Shown here piece by piece: positions 35,304-40,736 of a stretch of 54,537 nt of DNA (its first letter is position 1; each line of letters starts with the position of its first letter). The translations under genes were made by a program, and so were the position numbers. The DNA is taken from positions 1-54,537 of IMG/VR virus record IMGVR_UViG_3300034022_000096. One strand, 5' to 3'. A model generated the notes under the pieces. It made no database searches and was not told the origin of the DNA. It saw nothing but the letters and a program-made list of their open reading frames with translations. The DNA comes from a virus (taxonomy: Duplodnaviria > Caudoviricetes).

Positions 35304-35527
35304 GATTTTTTCTTCTCATGCATTTCGTAGAGCGTGGTGATGTACGCGATTAACTTATCGCGGGGGTAGCCCGTCTTGTATGCAAGCGTACACAGGTAGC
35401 TTAAAAGTGCAGAGATGCCTATGTTCACCTCTTTATCACCCATCAGTTCCATCAATTCGTCTACTGCGGCTTCCACTTTCTGCTGTTGAGCCCGACGTTC
35501 GCGTGTTTCCTCTATGTCTTTGGTCAT
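35300..35527 (-). CDS. hypothetical protein
   Basis: GGAGG RBS; coupled overlaps. Confidence 0.6.
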   Translation of the reverse strand: MTKDIEETRERRAQQQKVEAAVDELMELMGDKEVNIGISALLSYLCTLAYKTGYPRDKLIAYITTLYEMHEKKKS

Positions 35528-35805
35528 GATAAGACCTCCTTTAAAGTTTGTATGTTGTCCTCATTGATGACAACGGCTATCCCCCCTGCGCCACGTATGC
35601 GGCTCAGATGGGCTTCTTGTAGAGCGGTGGTTTTACCCTTACCCGCTTTTGCTTCAATGCCAACGAACTTGCCGTTAGCACATACAAGGAAGTCAGGCAC
35701 CCCTGAGTTCCCGTATCCTGTCCCGATGGGCATGGCGTAGTACACACCCAACTCATCTAGTATCTTACGTATTTGCTTCTTGACTTTTACTTCTGGTGTT
35801 GACAT
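35524..35805 (-). CDS. VRR-NUC domain nuclease (resolvase candidate)
   Basis: PE..VK, GVPDFL, GIEAKA and T.LQ motifs. Confidence 0.85.
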   Translation of the reverse strand: MSTPEVKVKKQIRKILDELGVYYAMPIGTGYGNSGVPDFLVCANGKFVGIEAKAGKGKTTALQEAHLSRIRGAGGIAVVINEDNIQTLKEVLS

Positions 35806-35819
35806 GTCAACCTCCTGTT

Positions 35820-35982
35820 AATTAGGCGAGGGGGTAAAGTAGATTACGCGCCCCCTCGTATCGCGTTGCGGAATGGCAACAAGAGGTAATTCTTCAAAGG
35901 ACTGACGCCCCTTGTTGCCGACAAAGTGTGGTCGCATCTACTAGGCTTGCACAAATCGCCTTATCAACACACGTCAGTCCTT
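35820..35982 (-). ncRNA. predicted structured RNA with two pseudoknots (family unknown)
   Basis: 12-bp and 8-bp stems whose loops are perfectly complementary (11 bp and 7 bp) to upstream segments; G-U pairs favour the minus strand. Confidence 0.6.
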
Positions 35983-36240
35983 GGATTCTTTTACACTTCT
36001 TCTGCCTGTGTAGTTAGGCTTTGGGCAGTTCTCAGGCACGTCAACGACGACCCAGATTGCGGCTAGTGTATTGCGGTGAGTTGACTTCTCCCACCGATCG
36101 ACGTACACCCCAAACACACTCTCCAATGCTTTGTTGACAACACGCTTGTCTATGCCCGTGAGCCTAGATATATCGCTTGACTTCAAACCATCGGGGTGTT
36201 GTTTGAGTGTATCTCGAATGATATTGTGATTACTCTTCAC
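35974..36240 (-). CDS. winged-HTH-like DNA-binding protein
   Basis: HPDGLKSSDISRLTGIDKRVVNKAL; GTG start. Confidence 0.6.
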   Translation of the reverse strand: MKSNHNIIRDTLKQHPDGLKSSDISRLTGIDKRVVNKALESVFGVYVDRWEKSTHRNTLAAIWVVVDVPENCPKPNYTGRRSVKESKD

Positions 36241-38385: not shown

Positions 38386-39510
38386 TTACTTGGTTGAGAA
38401 AAAGATTTTGTGTTCAGCCAACATGCGACCGAACTCATTGATCGTAGCGAACATAGCCACACGCTGACTTGTTGCCACTGTGTTGCAGAAGATCGACTGC
38501 ATCTCTGCACGCATACGCCACACGTACTTGACGATGGCTTCTGCTTCTGTCCTGTCCGCTACGCGAGTAACGAACTGGAATACCTGAATCAACTGCGCCG
38601 TAGGGTTGTCGGACAGCGGTGCTGTGTCAGGTGATTTGATAACGCGAGAGTACTCGCAGATCTCACGACCGAAGCGAATGAACGATGACAATGCCTGTGC
38701 AGTAGTAGCACCGACAGTACCAACGAGAGCCGCCTCAAGTGTGTCGTCATCGAGAACACCAAGACCCGCATCGAGGATGTCACTAGCGGCAACCAACGAG
38801 CGAGGTGTAGCGTATGCAAGTTGCATAGACTTGGGGTTGAAGATGAAGCCGTTGTCTTTGGACAAGTCCTTGCCCTCGAACATACCGCCCTTCTCGTAGT
38901 CAAGGAACGATTGCATAACGCGTGGCTCGTTGCTGACGAAAGCAATAATCATTGGGTTGACACGATTGTCAGTAGCCCACTTGACCCACTCGTCAGCGCT
39001 AGGCTTACGCATCTTGACGAACACCAGACGATTACGCAAGTGTGCTTGAATGGAATCACCAAGACCCTCGATGGATAGATTGGTGAAGCACACGACCACA
39101 CTACCCTCAGGCATGCTTAGATTGCCGACCCTGCGCTCATAGATGATCGGAGCCAATACATTCTTGATGAACTGCGGTGCCTTGGCGATCTCATCAAGAC
39201 CTACGAGGATAGGCTTGGAGTTGTTGACACCGAGTTGATTGGATGCGCTGACACCGAAGCGCTCGTTGGGTAACTCACGAGACACGCCATTCTCACGATC
39301 GAGGTCAGGCATCCACACAGAGCCGTCAGACAACTGAGTGCAGTCAATAGGTTGCACAGCGATGTGGTCAGCAAACTTGGGTAGCTTGCGTAGCATGTGG
39401 AAGAGGGCAGTTTTGCCGATGCCGTTCTCGCCCTCCACAATGACTGTGCGCTTGTCACCGACAGCGGCAATGAGGGAAACAACTTGTGATGCGGATAAGA
39501 ATTGATTCAT
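38386..39510 (-). CDS. MoxR/CbbQ-like AAA+ ATPase
   Basis: GENGIGKT Walker A, VGLDE Walker B, LRNR arginine finger, ATPRS sensor. Confidence 0.85.
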   Translation of the reverse strand: MNQFLSASQVVSLIAAVGDKRTVIVEGENGIGKTALFHMLRKLPKFADHIAVQPIDCTQLSDGSVWMPDLDRENGVSRELPNERFGVSASNQLGVNNSKPILVGLDEIAKAPQFIKNVLAPIIYERRVGNLSMPEGSVVVCFTNLSIEGLGDSIQAHLRNRLVFVKMRKPSADEWVKWATDNRVNPMIIAFVSNEPRVMQSFLDYEKGGMFEGKDLSKDNGFIFNPKSMQLAYATPRSLVAASDILDAGLGVLDDDTLEAALVGTVGATTAQALSSFIRFGREICEYSRVIKSPDTAPLSDNPTAQLIQVFQFVTRVADRTEAEAIVKYVWRMRAEMQSIFCNTVATSQRVAMFATINEFGRMLAEHKIFFSTK

Positions 39511-39533
39511 GATAAAGATCTCCAAAGATTAAG

Positions 39534-40736
39534 TTAAACAGAAATGTGCAAGACTTTGCCATAGGTAGGAACGAATGACTCGTTCTCTACCACACCCCAC
39601 AGAGATGGCATTGGGGTATTCGGGGTATCGCAACCAAGGTAACCATCTGTCAACCAGACGATTGCCCGAGCGTCGATCTTGTGTTCCTTGATGTAGTCGA
39701 CAACAACATCAGGAGTAGTACCGCCACCGCCCTTGGGGTTCATGAGCGAAGCGATCTGTTCATAGTCAGCAGGCTTGAAGGCTTGGTCACCACATACAGT
39801 AGTGTCCCACCACAACACACGCACACCCGCAGGCTTGGTGATGTTGCAGATGCGAGCGATCTCACCGAACAGCAGACGATAGTAAGGATACATAGAGCCC
39901 GATGTGTCGACAGCAAGTATCAACTCACCGACTGACTCTGTGAAGTGCGATGGCATAACGAAGCCCGAAGCGAGCAAGCGTTTGTTGGGAGGACAGAAGC
40001 GTGAGTTGTCATCACCCGCAGAGATAGAACTAATCCATTCCTGCAATGCCTGCTTCCAGTCAGTCATGCGTTCCTTGGCAGTGCCTAAGATGTCACGACC
40101 ACCGCCCTCTTTACCCGCAAGCTTACGTGCAAGTATCTCGCCTTGACGATTGGCATCGTCGATCTGCTTGCCAAGCTTGTCTTGCTCGACTGGGTTGTCA
40201 TCGAACTCACCATCCTCATGTGCATCGAGGGGCTCATCGAAGTCACCACCGCCCTCGTTGTCACCCTTACCACCCGAGGGTTCCTTACGCCCACTCTTGA
40301 TGAGATCGTTGAGCACCTGCGGGAATGACCAACCGAAGTACTTGCGATCAATGCACAACGACTCAGTAGGACGCTCGACAAACTTGAAGTCAGGGTCGAG
40401 TTCCTCGATGAGTGCATTGACCACATAGTCGTGTGCTATGTTGGTAAGCTTGGGCATCTTGCGTGTGTACTCTTTGAACAAGATGCAGTGCTTGAGTGCA
40501 ACGTGAAAGTTCTCGTGCAGTACAAGGTAGCGCATCTGCTTGCGGTTGAGTGGCGTAATGAAGTCAGCGCCATACTTCTTGTCACGACCATTGGTAGCGG
40601 CAGTACGTACCTTGGTAGACACCTCGCTCTTACCTAGCATGATGACGCCTGACAGCAAGGCGAACTTAGGGTGACGCATACAGTCAATGTTTGCGGCTTG
40701 GACTCTCTGATTGAGAGTCATCTTCTCATAGCTCAT
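39534..40736 (-). CDS. metallopeptidase-VWA protein (DUF2201-like)
   Basis: TAATNG, LHENFH (HExxH), DTSGS MIDAS, GGGGT and LTDG motifs. Confidence 0.85.
   Translation of the reverse strand: MSYEKMTLNQRVQAANIDCMRHPKFALLSGVIMLGKSEVSTKVRTAATNGRDKKYGADFITPLNRKQMRYLVLHENFHVALKHCILFKEYTRKMPKLTNIAHDYVVNALIEELDPDFKFVERPTESLCIDRKYFGWSFPQVLNDLIKSGRKEPSGGKGDNEGGGDFDEPLDAHEDGEFDDNPVEQDKLGKQIDDANRQGEILARKLAGKEGGGRDILGTAKERMTDWKQALQEWISSISAGDDNSRFCPPNKRLLASGFVMPSHFTESVGELILAVDTSGSMYPYYRLLFGEIARICNITKPAGVRVLWWDTTVCGDQAFKPADYEQIASLMNPKGGGGTTPDVVVDYIKEHKIDARAIVWLTDGYLGCDTPNTPMPSLWGVVENESFVPTYGKVLHISV

What the first reader, a model, noticed from the sequence alone, without database searches (positions are those of the whole stretch)
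35820..35982. Candidate novel structured RNA with two long-range pseudoknots
Seen (plus-strand coordinates): a 12-bp stem 35875-86/35908-19 whose loop segment 35897-35907 is a perfect 11-bp complement of 35972-35982, which covers the stop codon of the upstream gene. An 8-bp stem 35827-34/35851-58 has loop segment 35838-44 perfectly complementary to 35936-42. That segment lies inside a third domain (35926-30/35968-72 enclosing hairpin 35943-61). Non-Watson-Crick positions read as G-U only on the minus (sense) strand. Almost the whole 168-bp intergenic gap is paired, and there is no U-tract. Inference: a compact cis-acting RNA (translational switch, processing site or ribozyme) controlling the VRR-NUC/polA genes. 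A ribosome terminating upstream would disrupt the 11-bp pairing. I do not recognise the topology as HDV, twister, hammerhead or a known riboswitch.
Basis: partly seen in the sequence, partly recalled or inferred. Interest (0 to 1): 0.82.

Follow-up and report, generated by a model that had tools for sequence, protein, structure and literature searches.

The report
Conserved triple-pseudoknot RNA in phage mRNAs
The gap between two phage genes encodes a roughly 160-base RNA whose intricate knotted fold is kept intact by matching mutations across many uncultured phages, matches no catalogued RNA family, and has an unknown function.

Summary
On the minus (sense) strand, 35825-35982 encodes one member of a family of about 150-170-nt RNAs. 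I recovered about 150 sequence variants from uncultured-phage and metagenome contigs.

Six helices carry compensatory changes:
- A: 35972-82 / 35897-907
- F: 35950-60 / 35920-30
- B: 35908-19 / 35875-86
- C: 35851-57 / 35828-34
- D, the long-range loop-loop helix: 35936-42 / 35838-44

Nothing in Rfam 15 matches, and no tRNA or tmRNA is found.

The element usually starts at the stop codon of varied upstream genes. It ends about 20 nt before the start codon of a nuclease gene, mostly VRR-NUC-like, at the head of the replication module. Related phages that lack it have the two genes abutting or overlapping.

No conserved fold hides the ribosome-binding site.

Function is untested. Most likely it is a constitutively folded cis-acting leader that binds a protein or ligand. 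A ribozyme or processing site, a trans-acting RNA and ribosome-coupled models remain open.

The parts
35825..35982 (-). Whole RNA element, from the first base of helix A to the conserved R-C-Y tail
   Evidence: Covariance models R1 and R2 match 35822-35985 at 196 bits, and match 91 of 93 representative homologous loci.
35972..35982 (-). Helix A, 5' strand. It overlaps the last two codons and the stop of the upstream gene.
   Evidence: Pairs with 35897-35907. 89.7% of cells pair, and 11 of 11 pairs show changes on both sides, in 91 sequences aligned with R2.
35974..35976 (-). Stop codon (TGA) of the upstream 88-aa gene, inside helix A
   Evidence: ORF 35974..36240. In the family, a stop lies within -9 to +8 nt of the start of helix A in 74 of 91 members.
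35950..35960 (-). Stem F, 5' strand
   Evidence: Pairs with 35920-35930 (5 + 4 pairs around a 2x2 internal loop). 95-96% of cells pair, and all 9 pairs show changes on both sides. It is among the top pairs of the mutual-information scan.
35931..35949 (-). Loop of stem F (19 nt, nearly invariant). It carries segment D.
   Evidence: Invariant columns in alignments A1 and A2. Loop variants are tabulated.
35936..35942 (-). D: 5' half of the long-range loop-loop helix
   Evidence: Pairs with 35838-35844. 99.1% of cells pair, and 4 of 7 pairs show changes on both sides. These pairs were never part of either model.
35920..35930 (-). Stem F, 3' strand
   Evidence: See stem F, 5' strand.
35908..35919 (-). 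Helix B, 5' strand. It follows F directly and runs directly into A'.
   Evidence: Pairs with 35875-35886. 93.5% of cells pair, and 11 of 11 pairs show changes on both sides. 8 of 12 already do so in the 20 close relatives aligned by MAFFT.
35897..35907 (-). A': 3' strand of helix A, lying in the loop closed by helix B (first pseudoknot)
35875..35886 (-). B': 3' strand of helix B
35867..35874 (-). Junction between the two domains, with a conserved U-Y-C core
   Evidence: Invariant T and C columns in A1. Variants are tabulated. It is also kept in the L186 group, which lacks helices A and B.
35862..35866 (-).
   Evidence: Pairs with 35846-35850. 98.9% of cells pair, and 2 of 5 pairs show changes on both sides (19 and 28 cells). 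These pairs were not in model R1.
35851..35858 (-). Helix C, 5' strand. The 7 conserved pairs are 35851-57; the eighth, closing pair forms in few members.
   Evidence: Pairs with 35827-35834. The 7 inner pairs form in 87-91 of 91 sequences. The closing pair forms in only 17 of 88.
35846..35850 (-). E': 3' strand of helix E, directly after C
35838..35844 (-). D': 3' half of the loop-loop helix, in loop 3 of the second pseudoknot
35827..35834 (-). C': 3' strand of helix C
35825..35827 (-). Conserved single-stranded tail R-C-Y after helix C (35827 doubles as the closing pair in this window)
   Evidence: Position 1 is A in 82 of 91 and G in 8. Position 2 is C in 89 of 91. Position 3 is C in 68 and U in 22 of 91.
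35811..35815 (-). Shine-Dalgarno sequence (GGAGG) of the downstream gene. It lies outside the conserved fold.
   Evidence: Read from the sequence. No conserved pairing partner was found in 83 members.
35524..35805 (-). Downstream gene: 93-aa VRR-NUC-like endonuclease, start codon at 35803-35805
   Evidence: phrog_93 endonuclease, E = 4.2e-15. Cultured-phage relatives are annotated as VRR-NUC or Holliday junction resolvase.
35974..36240 (-). Upstream gene: 88-aa protein of no known family
   Evidence: It has 118 relatives in viral contigs.

Best explanation
WHAT IT IS (shown). 35825-35982 on the minus strand is one member of a widespread family of about 150-170-nt RNAs. The family is found only in uncultured phages and has no Rfam entry.

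Reading 5' to 3':
- Helix A closes over hairpin F.
- Helix B starts right after F and pairs across A'. A and B together form the first H-type pseudoknot.
- A short pyrimidine-rich junction follows.
- Helices E (5 bp) and C (7 bp) form a second H-type pseudoknot.
- The 7-bp helix D ties the loop of F to loop 3 of the second pseudoknot.

The core is F + D + E/C. The A/B domain is peripheral, because one subgroup lacks it.

The RNA is part of the polycistronic message of the replication module. It usually begins at the stop codon of whatever gene precedes it. It ends about 20 nt before the start codon of a nuclease gene.

HOW IT MOST LIKELY WORKS (inferred, about 0.4). It is a constitutively folded cis-acting leader. 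It replaces the direct stop/start coupling seen in phages that lack it. It sets translation, and perhaps the stability, of the downstream nuclease and replication genes by binding a trans factor: a phage or host protein, or a small ligand. It does not work by hiding the Shine-Dalgarno sequence.

Helix A can form only when no ribosome sits on the upstream stop codon. Upstream translation would therefore modulate the peripheral domain, not the core.
For: Structure:
- 91 of 93 representative loci match each of two covariance models, with one hit per locus.
- Share of cells paired: D 99.1%, E 98.9%, B 93.5%, F 95-96%, C 90.2%, A 89.7%.
- 42 of 52 pairs show changes on both sides. 0 of 500 shuffles reach the observed values. 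Versions with the 3' partner slid by 1-3 columns pair in 40-52% of cells.
- D was in neither model. E and A were not in R1.
- A structure-blind mutual-information scan ranks exactly these helices on top.
- D covaries through eight or more different 7-mers.

Strand: 269 G-U cells against 115 A-C cells.

Not a known family.

Placement:
- The start codon lies 13-26 nt after helix C in 72 of 89 members.
- 58 of 89 downstream proteins are VRR-NUC-like. Others are PD-(D/E)XK exonuclease, PolA or small ORFs that precede the nuclease.
- The upstream stop lies at or in helix A in 74 of 91 members, although the upstream proteins are unrelated to one another.
- In the window it heads the VRR-NUC / PolA / exonuclease / helicase / primase block.
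- There is a single copy per contig.
- Phages with the same gene pair but no element have the genes overlapping or abutting.
Against: - No experiment and no strand-specific RNA data exist. The only RNA-library evidence is assembled contigs, which cannot exclude DNA.
- No trans factor or ligand is identified.
- No alternative fold or expression platform is conserved. RBS duplex energy is -10.3 kcal/mol against -10.8 for shuffled RBS, and the partner sites are scattered.
- The genes directly downstream are not always the same. This argues against simple autoregulation by the next gene's product.
- In the weakest member (L346, 27-30 bits) a convergent gene follows, with no same-strand gene to regulate.
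- In the L355 group the upstream ORF ends about 220 nt before the element.
- A 160-nt fold with three tertiary pairings is more elaborate than known phage translational operators (recalled, not tested).
Confidence: 0.45

Rival explanations
1. RNA-processing element. It is a self-cleaving ribozyme, or a built-in substrate for a host RNase. The A+B stack makes about 23 bp of quasi-continuous duplex, which suits RNase III. The 7+5-bp E/C stack with an R-C-Y tail suits RNase P. Cleavage would cut the polycistronic message between the early genes and the nuclease/replication genes, and would leave a protective folded end.
For: - It has the size, multiple pseudoknots and near-invariant unpaired bases typical of catalytic cores.
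- It is intergenic within an operon and has no terminator.
- B runs directly into A', and C directly into E', which allows coaxial stacks.
- The R-C-Y tail follows a 7-bp stem in 80 or more of 91 members.
Against: - There is no similarity to any ribozyme family in Rfam 15.
- It occurs as a single copy in a fixed gene context. Known small ribozymes occur in scattered contexts (recalled).
- One metatranscriptome contig (run X1, 840 nt) runs uninterrupted from the element into the downstream genes. This is weak evidence, because DNA carry-over is not excluded.
- No cleavage site can be named.
Confidence: 0.2
2. Ribosome-coupled device. The ribosome terminating on the stop codon inside helix A melts the first pseudoknot. 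This toggles the fold, or lets the ribosome pass across the compact fold, so that translation of the nuclease gene depends on translation of the upstream gene.
For: - The stop codon lies within -9 to +8 nt of the first base of helix A in 74 of 91 members, although the upstream proteins are unrelated. All three stop codons occur, with matching changes in A'.
- Phages without the element have stop and start overlapping, which is classic coupling.
- In the window lineage, B' can alternatively pair with the Shine-Dalgarno region.
Against: - The L186 group has no A/B domain but keeps the core.
- In the L355 group the upstream ORF ends about 220 nt away.
- The register of the stop relative to helix A varies, with offsets from -9 to +8.
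- No conserved partner for the RBS, and no conserved second fold, is found.
- The B'-to-SD pairing is lost in L037 and other lineages.
- Tight gene packing in phages could by itself place the element flush with the stop codon.
Confidence: 0.12
3. Trans-acting stable RNA. It would be excised from the message like a phage tRNA gene and act elsewhere, for example as a tRNA-like mimic or as a decoy for a host enzyme or defence protein. The 7-bp + 5-bp stacked second pseudoknot followed by R-C-C resembles the acceptor/T arm of tRNA, and resembles the pseudoknotted tRNA-like ends of some plant viruses.
For: - Helix lengths of 7 and 5 bp are almost invariant, and the tail is A/G-C-C/U.
- Presence among VRR-NUC lineages is patchy. 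At least 6 gains or losses are forced by well-supported branches, and 15 is the most parsimonious count. This fits an accessory function.
- One member sits at the end of a transcription unit.
Against: - ARAGORN finds no tRNA or tmRNA.
- No tRNA-clan hit appears in Rfam even at E = 10.
- The fourth tail base is not conserved: U in 40, A in 36 and C in 15 of 91.
- The continuous strand of the stack is internal, not 3'-terminal as in tRNA.
- The fixed distance to the next start codon fits a cis role better.
- The tree labels are noisy, and the set is biased because most loci were fetched through the element itself.
- The tRNA and plant-virus resemblances are recalled, not tested.
Confidence: 0.12
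4. Transcription-level element. The RNA would bind RNA polymerase or block Rho (put-like or anti-Rho), so that transcription reads on into the replication genes.
For: - It sits at the boundary between small early-type genes and the replication block.
- It folds almost all of an untranslated gap of about 170 nt, which would deny Rho a loading site.
Against: - No terminator-like site lies downstream within the next genes, beyond the number expected by chance.
- There is no similarity to the put or EAR families in Rfam.
- The conserved spacing to the start codon is not needed for such a role.
Confidence: 0.07
5. Not an RNA. It would be a DNA-level feature (an origin, or protein-binding inverted repeats), or chance complementarity.
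For: It lies in the replication module. Inverted repeats are also DNA features.
Against: - G-U pairs exceed A-C pairs 269 to 115, and 71 of the A-C cells are at one position. This points to the transcribed sense strand.
- The pairings cross one another (pseudoknots) and covary. DNA cruciforms do not require that.
- 0 of 300 shuffles reach an 11-bp stem.
Confidence: 0.02

Closest known systems
Translational operators in phage replication-gene messages (for example the T4 gene 32 leader pseudoknot). The gene 32 case is described in passages of PMC10690425 that I read; further details are recalled.
   Same: A phage RNA inside a polycistronic message, an H-type pseudoknot just upstream of the start of a DNA-metabolism gene, with no terminator.
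   Different: - About 160 nt with two pseudoknots and a bridging loop-loop helix, instead of one small pseudoknot.
- The downstream gene is a VRR-NUC-like nuclease, not an ssDNA-binding protein.
- No binding protein is known.
- There is no sequence relation.
Large multi-pseudoknot cis-acting RNAs: the glmS ribozyme, twister and HDV-like ribozymes
   Same: Compact folds built from nested or crossing helices with near-invariant unpaired bases. They act in cis on their own message.
   Different: No Rfam model of these families matches the window or 15 diverse members, even at lenient E-values. The helix order (A, F, F', B, A', B', E, C, E', C', plus D between the F loop and loop 3) fits none of them as I recall their topologies. 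Cleavage is untested.
Pseudoknot-type riboswitch aptamers (SAM-II/V, preQ1-II/III and the like; recalled)
   Same: An H-type pseudoknot immediately upstream of a start codon, and strong conservation of loop bases.
   Different: In those classes the Shine-Dalgarno sequence is part of the pseudoknot. Here it lies 8-12 nt outside and has no conserved partner. The neighbouring genes are nucleases and a polymerase, not metabolic genes. No ligand is suggested.
Type III antitoxin RNAs (ToxI and relatives). I saw only the listing and abstracts of PMC5772629 and PMC4627078.
   Same: A pseudoknotted RNA encoded directly upstream of a nuclease gene.
   Different: Those are tandem repeats of 36-45 nt, cut by their partner endoribonuclease and separated from it by a terminator. 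This is a single 160-nt unit with no repeat and no terminator, placed before a DNA-type (PD-(D/E)XK-fold) nuclease, and sometimes before other genes.
Catalogue of 8,495 candidate structured RNAs from IMG/VR intergenic regions (PMC10690425; I read passages of the main text, the supplements are closed)
   Same: The same data source and the same kind of object. That catalogue lists 879 candidates within 25 nt upstream of genes.
   Different: The main text names no motif before VRR-NUC genes. Its candidates are 29-151 nt long (mean 67). Whether part of this element is among the unnamed DNAVirus_x models could not be checked. The passages I read do not describe this architecture.

Membership tests
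Any Rfam 15 family | A covariance-model score at or above the family's gathering threshold | tested here: not met
   There are 0 matches in the whole window. In E-value mode on 35760-36030, the four matches have E of 2.3 or more and scores far below gathering. In 15 diverse members there are 2 weak matches. Only one of them overlaps an element (CcsR1, 18.9 bits against 65.3), and it does not recur.
tRNA / tmRNA | Cloverleaf or tRNA-like domain recognised by ARAGORN | tested here: not met
   0 genes in the window.
H-type pseudoknot (a structural class, not a homology family) | Two helices in the order S1-5', S2-5', S1-3', S2-3', each supported on its own | tested here: met
   A/B and E/C both have this order. 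All four helices covary. The loop between A' and B' is 10 nt in the window, long enough in principle to cross an 11-bp helix. That last point is inference.
Riboswitch that sequesters the Shine-Dalgarno sequence | A conserved alternative pairing that occludes the RBS | tested here: not met
   In 83 members the best RBS partner falls in 13 different parts of the element. The mean energy is -10.3 kcal/mol against -10.8 for shuffled RBS.
Riboswitch (any) | Specific binding of a small ligand | not testable with these tools
   Needs in-line probing or ITC.
Self-cleaving ribozyme (any class) | Site-specific self-scission of the transcript | not testable with these tools
   Needs an in-vitro transcription and cleavage assay. 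No known class matches by Rfam.
Intrinsic terminator | G+C-rich hairpin followed by a U-tract | tested here: not met
   No terminator-like site was called in 35806-35990. Helix C is followed by R-C-Y and then A/U-mixed sequence.
Group I intron core (a topological resemblance: A=P3, F=P4-P6, B=P7) | A match to the Intron_gpI model; splice sites with a guide sequence and a terminal G | tested here: not met
   No Rfam match. The element lies between two complete ORFs. Splice-site features were not examined further.
Type III antitoxin RNA | Tandem direct repeats upstream of an endoribonuclease toxin, with a terminator between them | tested here: not met
   There is a single copy per contig and no terminator. 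The downstream protein matches phage endonuclease / VRR-NUC families.

The most novel reading that the evidence does not exclude
The F-loop / second-pseudoknot core is the ligand-binding or catalytic centre of a new riboswitch or ribozyme class, of glmS-like size. Uncultured phages would use it to gate their nuclease and replication genes in response to a cellular or infection signal such as a nucleotide-derived molecule. In the same spirit, the 7+5-bp stack with its R-C-C tail could be a tRNA-like handle that recruits a host tRNA enzyme.
Probability: 0.22. Interest if true: 0.9.

Novelty: new variant of a known kind. Interest (0 to 1): 0.72.

Why it matters
RNAs of this size with three crossing, covariation-proven pairings and many invariant unpaired bases are rare. 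In the past most have turned out to be riboswitches, ribozymes or ribonucleoprotein scaffolds.

This one is widespread in uncultured freshwater and other environmental phages, and it has no entry in Rfam 15. It sits at the entry to the replication and nuclease genes, so it is a well-defined target that is ready for experiment. The helices, the compensatory mutants to make, a natural minimal version (the L186 type) and natural element-free controls are all in hand.

If it binds a ligand or cleaves itself, it would be a new class. If it is a protein operator, it would show how these phages uncouple nuclease synthesis from early genes.

Tried and rejected
- Rfam at gathering and at lenient thresholds, on the window and on 15 diverse members: nothing meaningful.
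- ARAGORN: nothing.
- blastn of the region and of a consensus-like member against 50,697 phage records: no match, or noise only at E = 6. Cultured phages hold only distant VRR-NUC relatives, below 45% identity. No cultured host or published transcriptome could therefore be used.
- Pattern scan of 185,579 species genomes: 0 matches. This holds only for that exact pattern.
- B' pairing with the Shine-Dalgarno sequence, as in the window's lowest-energy fold: rejected as a family feature.
- A search for further covarying column pairs (tail, junction, loop flanks): none beyond the six helices.
- Loci of relatives without the element, searched with R1 at E up to 1. Only a diverged copy in L063 and a partial match in L349 were found. 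34 of 36 loci had no match.
- RNA-library runs. Only assembled contigs were available. Relatives of the element are present in two studies (X1, X3), but strand, ends and true RNA origin cannot be told. X2 and X4 did not cover the element.
- Earlier findings of this scan: three look-ups, nothing.
- Literature: two full-text searches found no description of this motif. The supplements of PMC10690425, which may list it, are closed.
- The VRR-NUC tree with presence/absence labels is only indicative. The labels are noisy and the sampling is biased.

Full report
THE LOCUS

The window is a 54.5-kb record of an uncultured virus. All genes around the finding lie on the minus strand.
- An 88-aa ORF (35974..36240) ends with TGA at 35974-76.
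- A 93-aa ORF (35524..35805) starts at 35805, with GGAGG at 35811-15. The gap between the two ORFs is 168 nt.
- The 93-aa protein matches a phage endonuclease family (phrog_93, E = 4e-15). Its distant cultured-phage relatives are annotated as VRR-NUC or Holliday junction resolvase.
- Downstream follow small ORFs, a family-A DNA polymerase, an exonuclease, a helicase and a primase/helicase.

The gap therefore stands at the entry to the replication block.

THE OBSERVATION

In 300 shuffles of the 180-nt stretch, none reached an 11-bp perfect stem. The real sequence has four perfect stems of 7 bp or more, against a mean of 0.68 in shuffles. A lone 7-bp match would not be significant.

The minus strand folds better than its shuffles (z = -3.1) and better than the plus strand (z = -2.3).

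RELATIVES

- Protein-anchored searches with the two flanking genes gave 158 loci from viral contigs.
- 13 close variants of the gap already showed compensatory changes by eye.
- A profile search found diverged copies upstream of more distant nuclease genes.
- A pattern from the most conserved block found 86 stretches in viral contigs, 102 in metagenome contigs and none in 185,579 species genomes.
- A looser pattern that left one loop free found many more, including members with changed loop sequences.

In all I had 114 distinct variants from the strict pattern, one of them a chance hit, plus 45 from the loose one.

THE FOLD

From a MAFFT alignment of 20 close members I wrote the structure by hand and built two covariance models. 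R1 holds helices F, B and C. R2 holds A, F and E. Each model matched 91 of 93 representative loci, once per locus.

Pair counts on the resulting alignments:

| Helix | Window coordinates | Cells paired | Pairs changed on both sides |
|---|---|---|---|
| A | 35972-82 / 35897-907 | 89.7% | 11 of 11 |
| F | 35950-60 / 35920-30 | 95-96% | 9 of 9 |
| B | 35908-19 / 35875-86 | 93.5% | 11 of 11 |
| E | 35862-66 / 35846-50 | 98.9% | 2 of 5 |
| C | 35851-57 / 35828-34 | 87-91 of 91 sequences per pair | few; nearly invariant |
| D | 35936-42 / 35838-44 | 99.1% | 4 of 7 |

- Over the whole structure, 0 of 500 shuffles reached the observed values. Versions with the partner slid by 1-3 columns paired in only 40-52% of cells.
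- D was in neither model, and E and A were not in R1. Those counts are therefore not fitted to the structure.
- The loose-pattern members show D as at least eight different complementary 7-mer pairs. One clade has a single central mismatch.
- A mutual-information scan that knows nothing of my structure ranks exactly these helices first and finds no others.
- G-U cells outnumber A-C cells 269 to 115. 71 of the A-C cells come from one closing pair. The folded strand is therefore the sense (minus) strand.

The order along the RNA is A, F, F', B, A', B', junction, E, C, E', D', C'. This makes two H-type pseudoknots (A/B and E/C). Helix D bridges the F loop to loop 3 of the second pseudoknot.

- The proposed third domain pairs in only 58.5% of cells on an alignment that no model fitted. 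Stem F reaches 87.2% on the same alignment.
- Helix E was not noticed.

CONTEXT ACROSS THE FAMILY

Upstream side:
- The stop codon of the upstream ORF lies within -9 to +8 nt of the first base of helix A in 74 of 91 members.
- This holds although the upstream proteins have unrelated C-termini.
- All three stop codons occur there, with matching changes in A'.
- The other 17 include wrong ORF picks by my heuristic. They also include real exceptions such as the L355 group, where the upstream ORF ends about 220 nt away.

Downstream side:
- A start codon lies 13-26 nt after helix C in 72 of 89 members.
- 58 of 89 downstream proteins are VRR-NUC-like.
- The rest are a PD-(D/E)XK exonuclease (six loci), a family-A polymerase (one locus), or small ORFs of no known family, several of which are followed by the nuclease gene.
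- In the weakest member (L346) a convergent gene follows.
- After helix C comes a conserved R-C-Y tail.

Variants and relatives without the element:
- The L186 group (four variants) has no A/B domain but keeps F, D, the junction and E/C. That part is therefore the core.
- Relatives with the same gene pair but no element have the two genes overlapping by about 13 nt, or the stop abutting the Shine-Dalgarno sequence.
- On a tree of the nuclease, presence is patchy. At least 6 changes are forced by well-supported branches. The labels are noisy and the sampling is biased towards carriers.

WHAT IT IS NOT

- No Rfam 15 family matches the window or 15 diverse members.
- There is no tRNA or tmRNA and no terminator.
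- No conserved pairing hides the ribosome-binding site. In 83 members the best partner of the RBS is scattered over 13 parts of the element, and it is no stronger than for shuffled RBS.
- The B'-to-SD pairing in the window's lowest-energy fold is lost in other lineages.

EXPRESSION

Only assembled contigs of RNA libraries could be laid. Relatives of the element occur in two studies. One 840-nt contig runs from the element into the downstream genes. DNA carry-over, strand and ends cannot be judged.

MECHANISM

Shown: a conserved, compact, sense-strand RNA fold placed between a stop codon and the next ribosome-binding site, at the head of the nuclease and replication genes.

Inferred: it acts in cis as a constitutively folded leader that binds a protein or ligand, and it replaces direct stop/start coupling (about 0.4). 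Rivals are a ribozyme or RNase site (0.2), a ribosome-coupled device (0.12), an excised trans-acting RNA, perhaps tRNA-like (0.12), and a transcription-level element (0.07).

The fixed gene context, the single copy and the constant spacing to the start codon favour a cis role. The lack of any expression platform, the variable downstream gene and the L346 case weigh against it.

NOVELTY

The family is absent from Rfam 15 and from cultured phage genomes. Two full-text searches found no description.

A 2023 catalogue of 8,495 candidate structured RNAs from IMG/VR intergenic regions may contain part of it. I read only passages of its main text. They do not mention it, and the supplements are closed.

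I therefore rate it a new family of a known broad kind, namely pseudoknotted cis-acting RNAs in phage messages. There is a real chance that it is a new functional class.

Noticed in passing
window 35875-35886 with 35812-35820: In the window and its closest relatives, the 3' strand of helix B can instead pair with the Shine-Dalgarno region (9 bp, one of them G-U). This is what the lowest-energy fold shows. Other lineages (L037, L039, L040) lose the pairing, so it may be a lineage-specific extra layer or chance.
   Followed up: partly
window 35798-35811: A 14-nt palindrome surrounds the start codon of the nuclease gene. It could form a small hairpin holding the AUG. It is conserved only among close relatives.
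   Followed up: no
L025, L031, L032, L035, L036, L040 and others (between the element and the nuclease gene): In several relatives one extra small gene (67-100 aa, no known family) sits between the RNA element and the VRR-NUC-like gene. The element stays attached to the upstream stop codon, and the inserted gene has its own ribosome-binding site about 20 nt after helix C.
   Followed up: partly
L186, L217 and two further variants: A natural minimal form of the RNA. It has no A/B pseudoknot; an unrelated hairpin lies upstream instead. Stem F, the loop-loop helix, the junction and the second pseudoknot are intact.
   Followed up: partly
L134, L136, L128, L153 (gene overlap); L073, L075, L078 (stop abuts the SD): Phages with homologous flanking genes but no RNA element have the two genes overlapping by about 13 nt, or the stop codon fused to the Shine-Dalgarno sequence. 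The element is therefore an optional insert at a translational-coupling junction.
   Followed up: partly
L228, L360, L348, L396 (between A' and B'): Some members carry an extra insertion of about 20-40 nt in the loop that crosses helix A. It may be a hairpin. I did not test it for covariation.
   Followed up: no
L271:4732-4889 (77-kb G+C-rich metagenome contig): A diverged copy (48 bits) lies in G+C-rich DNA, where long ORFs are called on both strands across it and no nearby downstream start was found. Whether it is intergenic there is unclear.
   Followed up: partly
window 39534-40736 (minus strand): A 400-aa protein matching a phage family annotated as HNH endonuclease (phrog_1314, E = 9e-60) and an ATPase (38386-39525) lie upstream in the same minus-strand gene array.
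   Followed up: no
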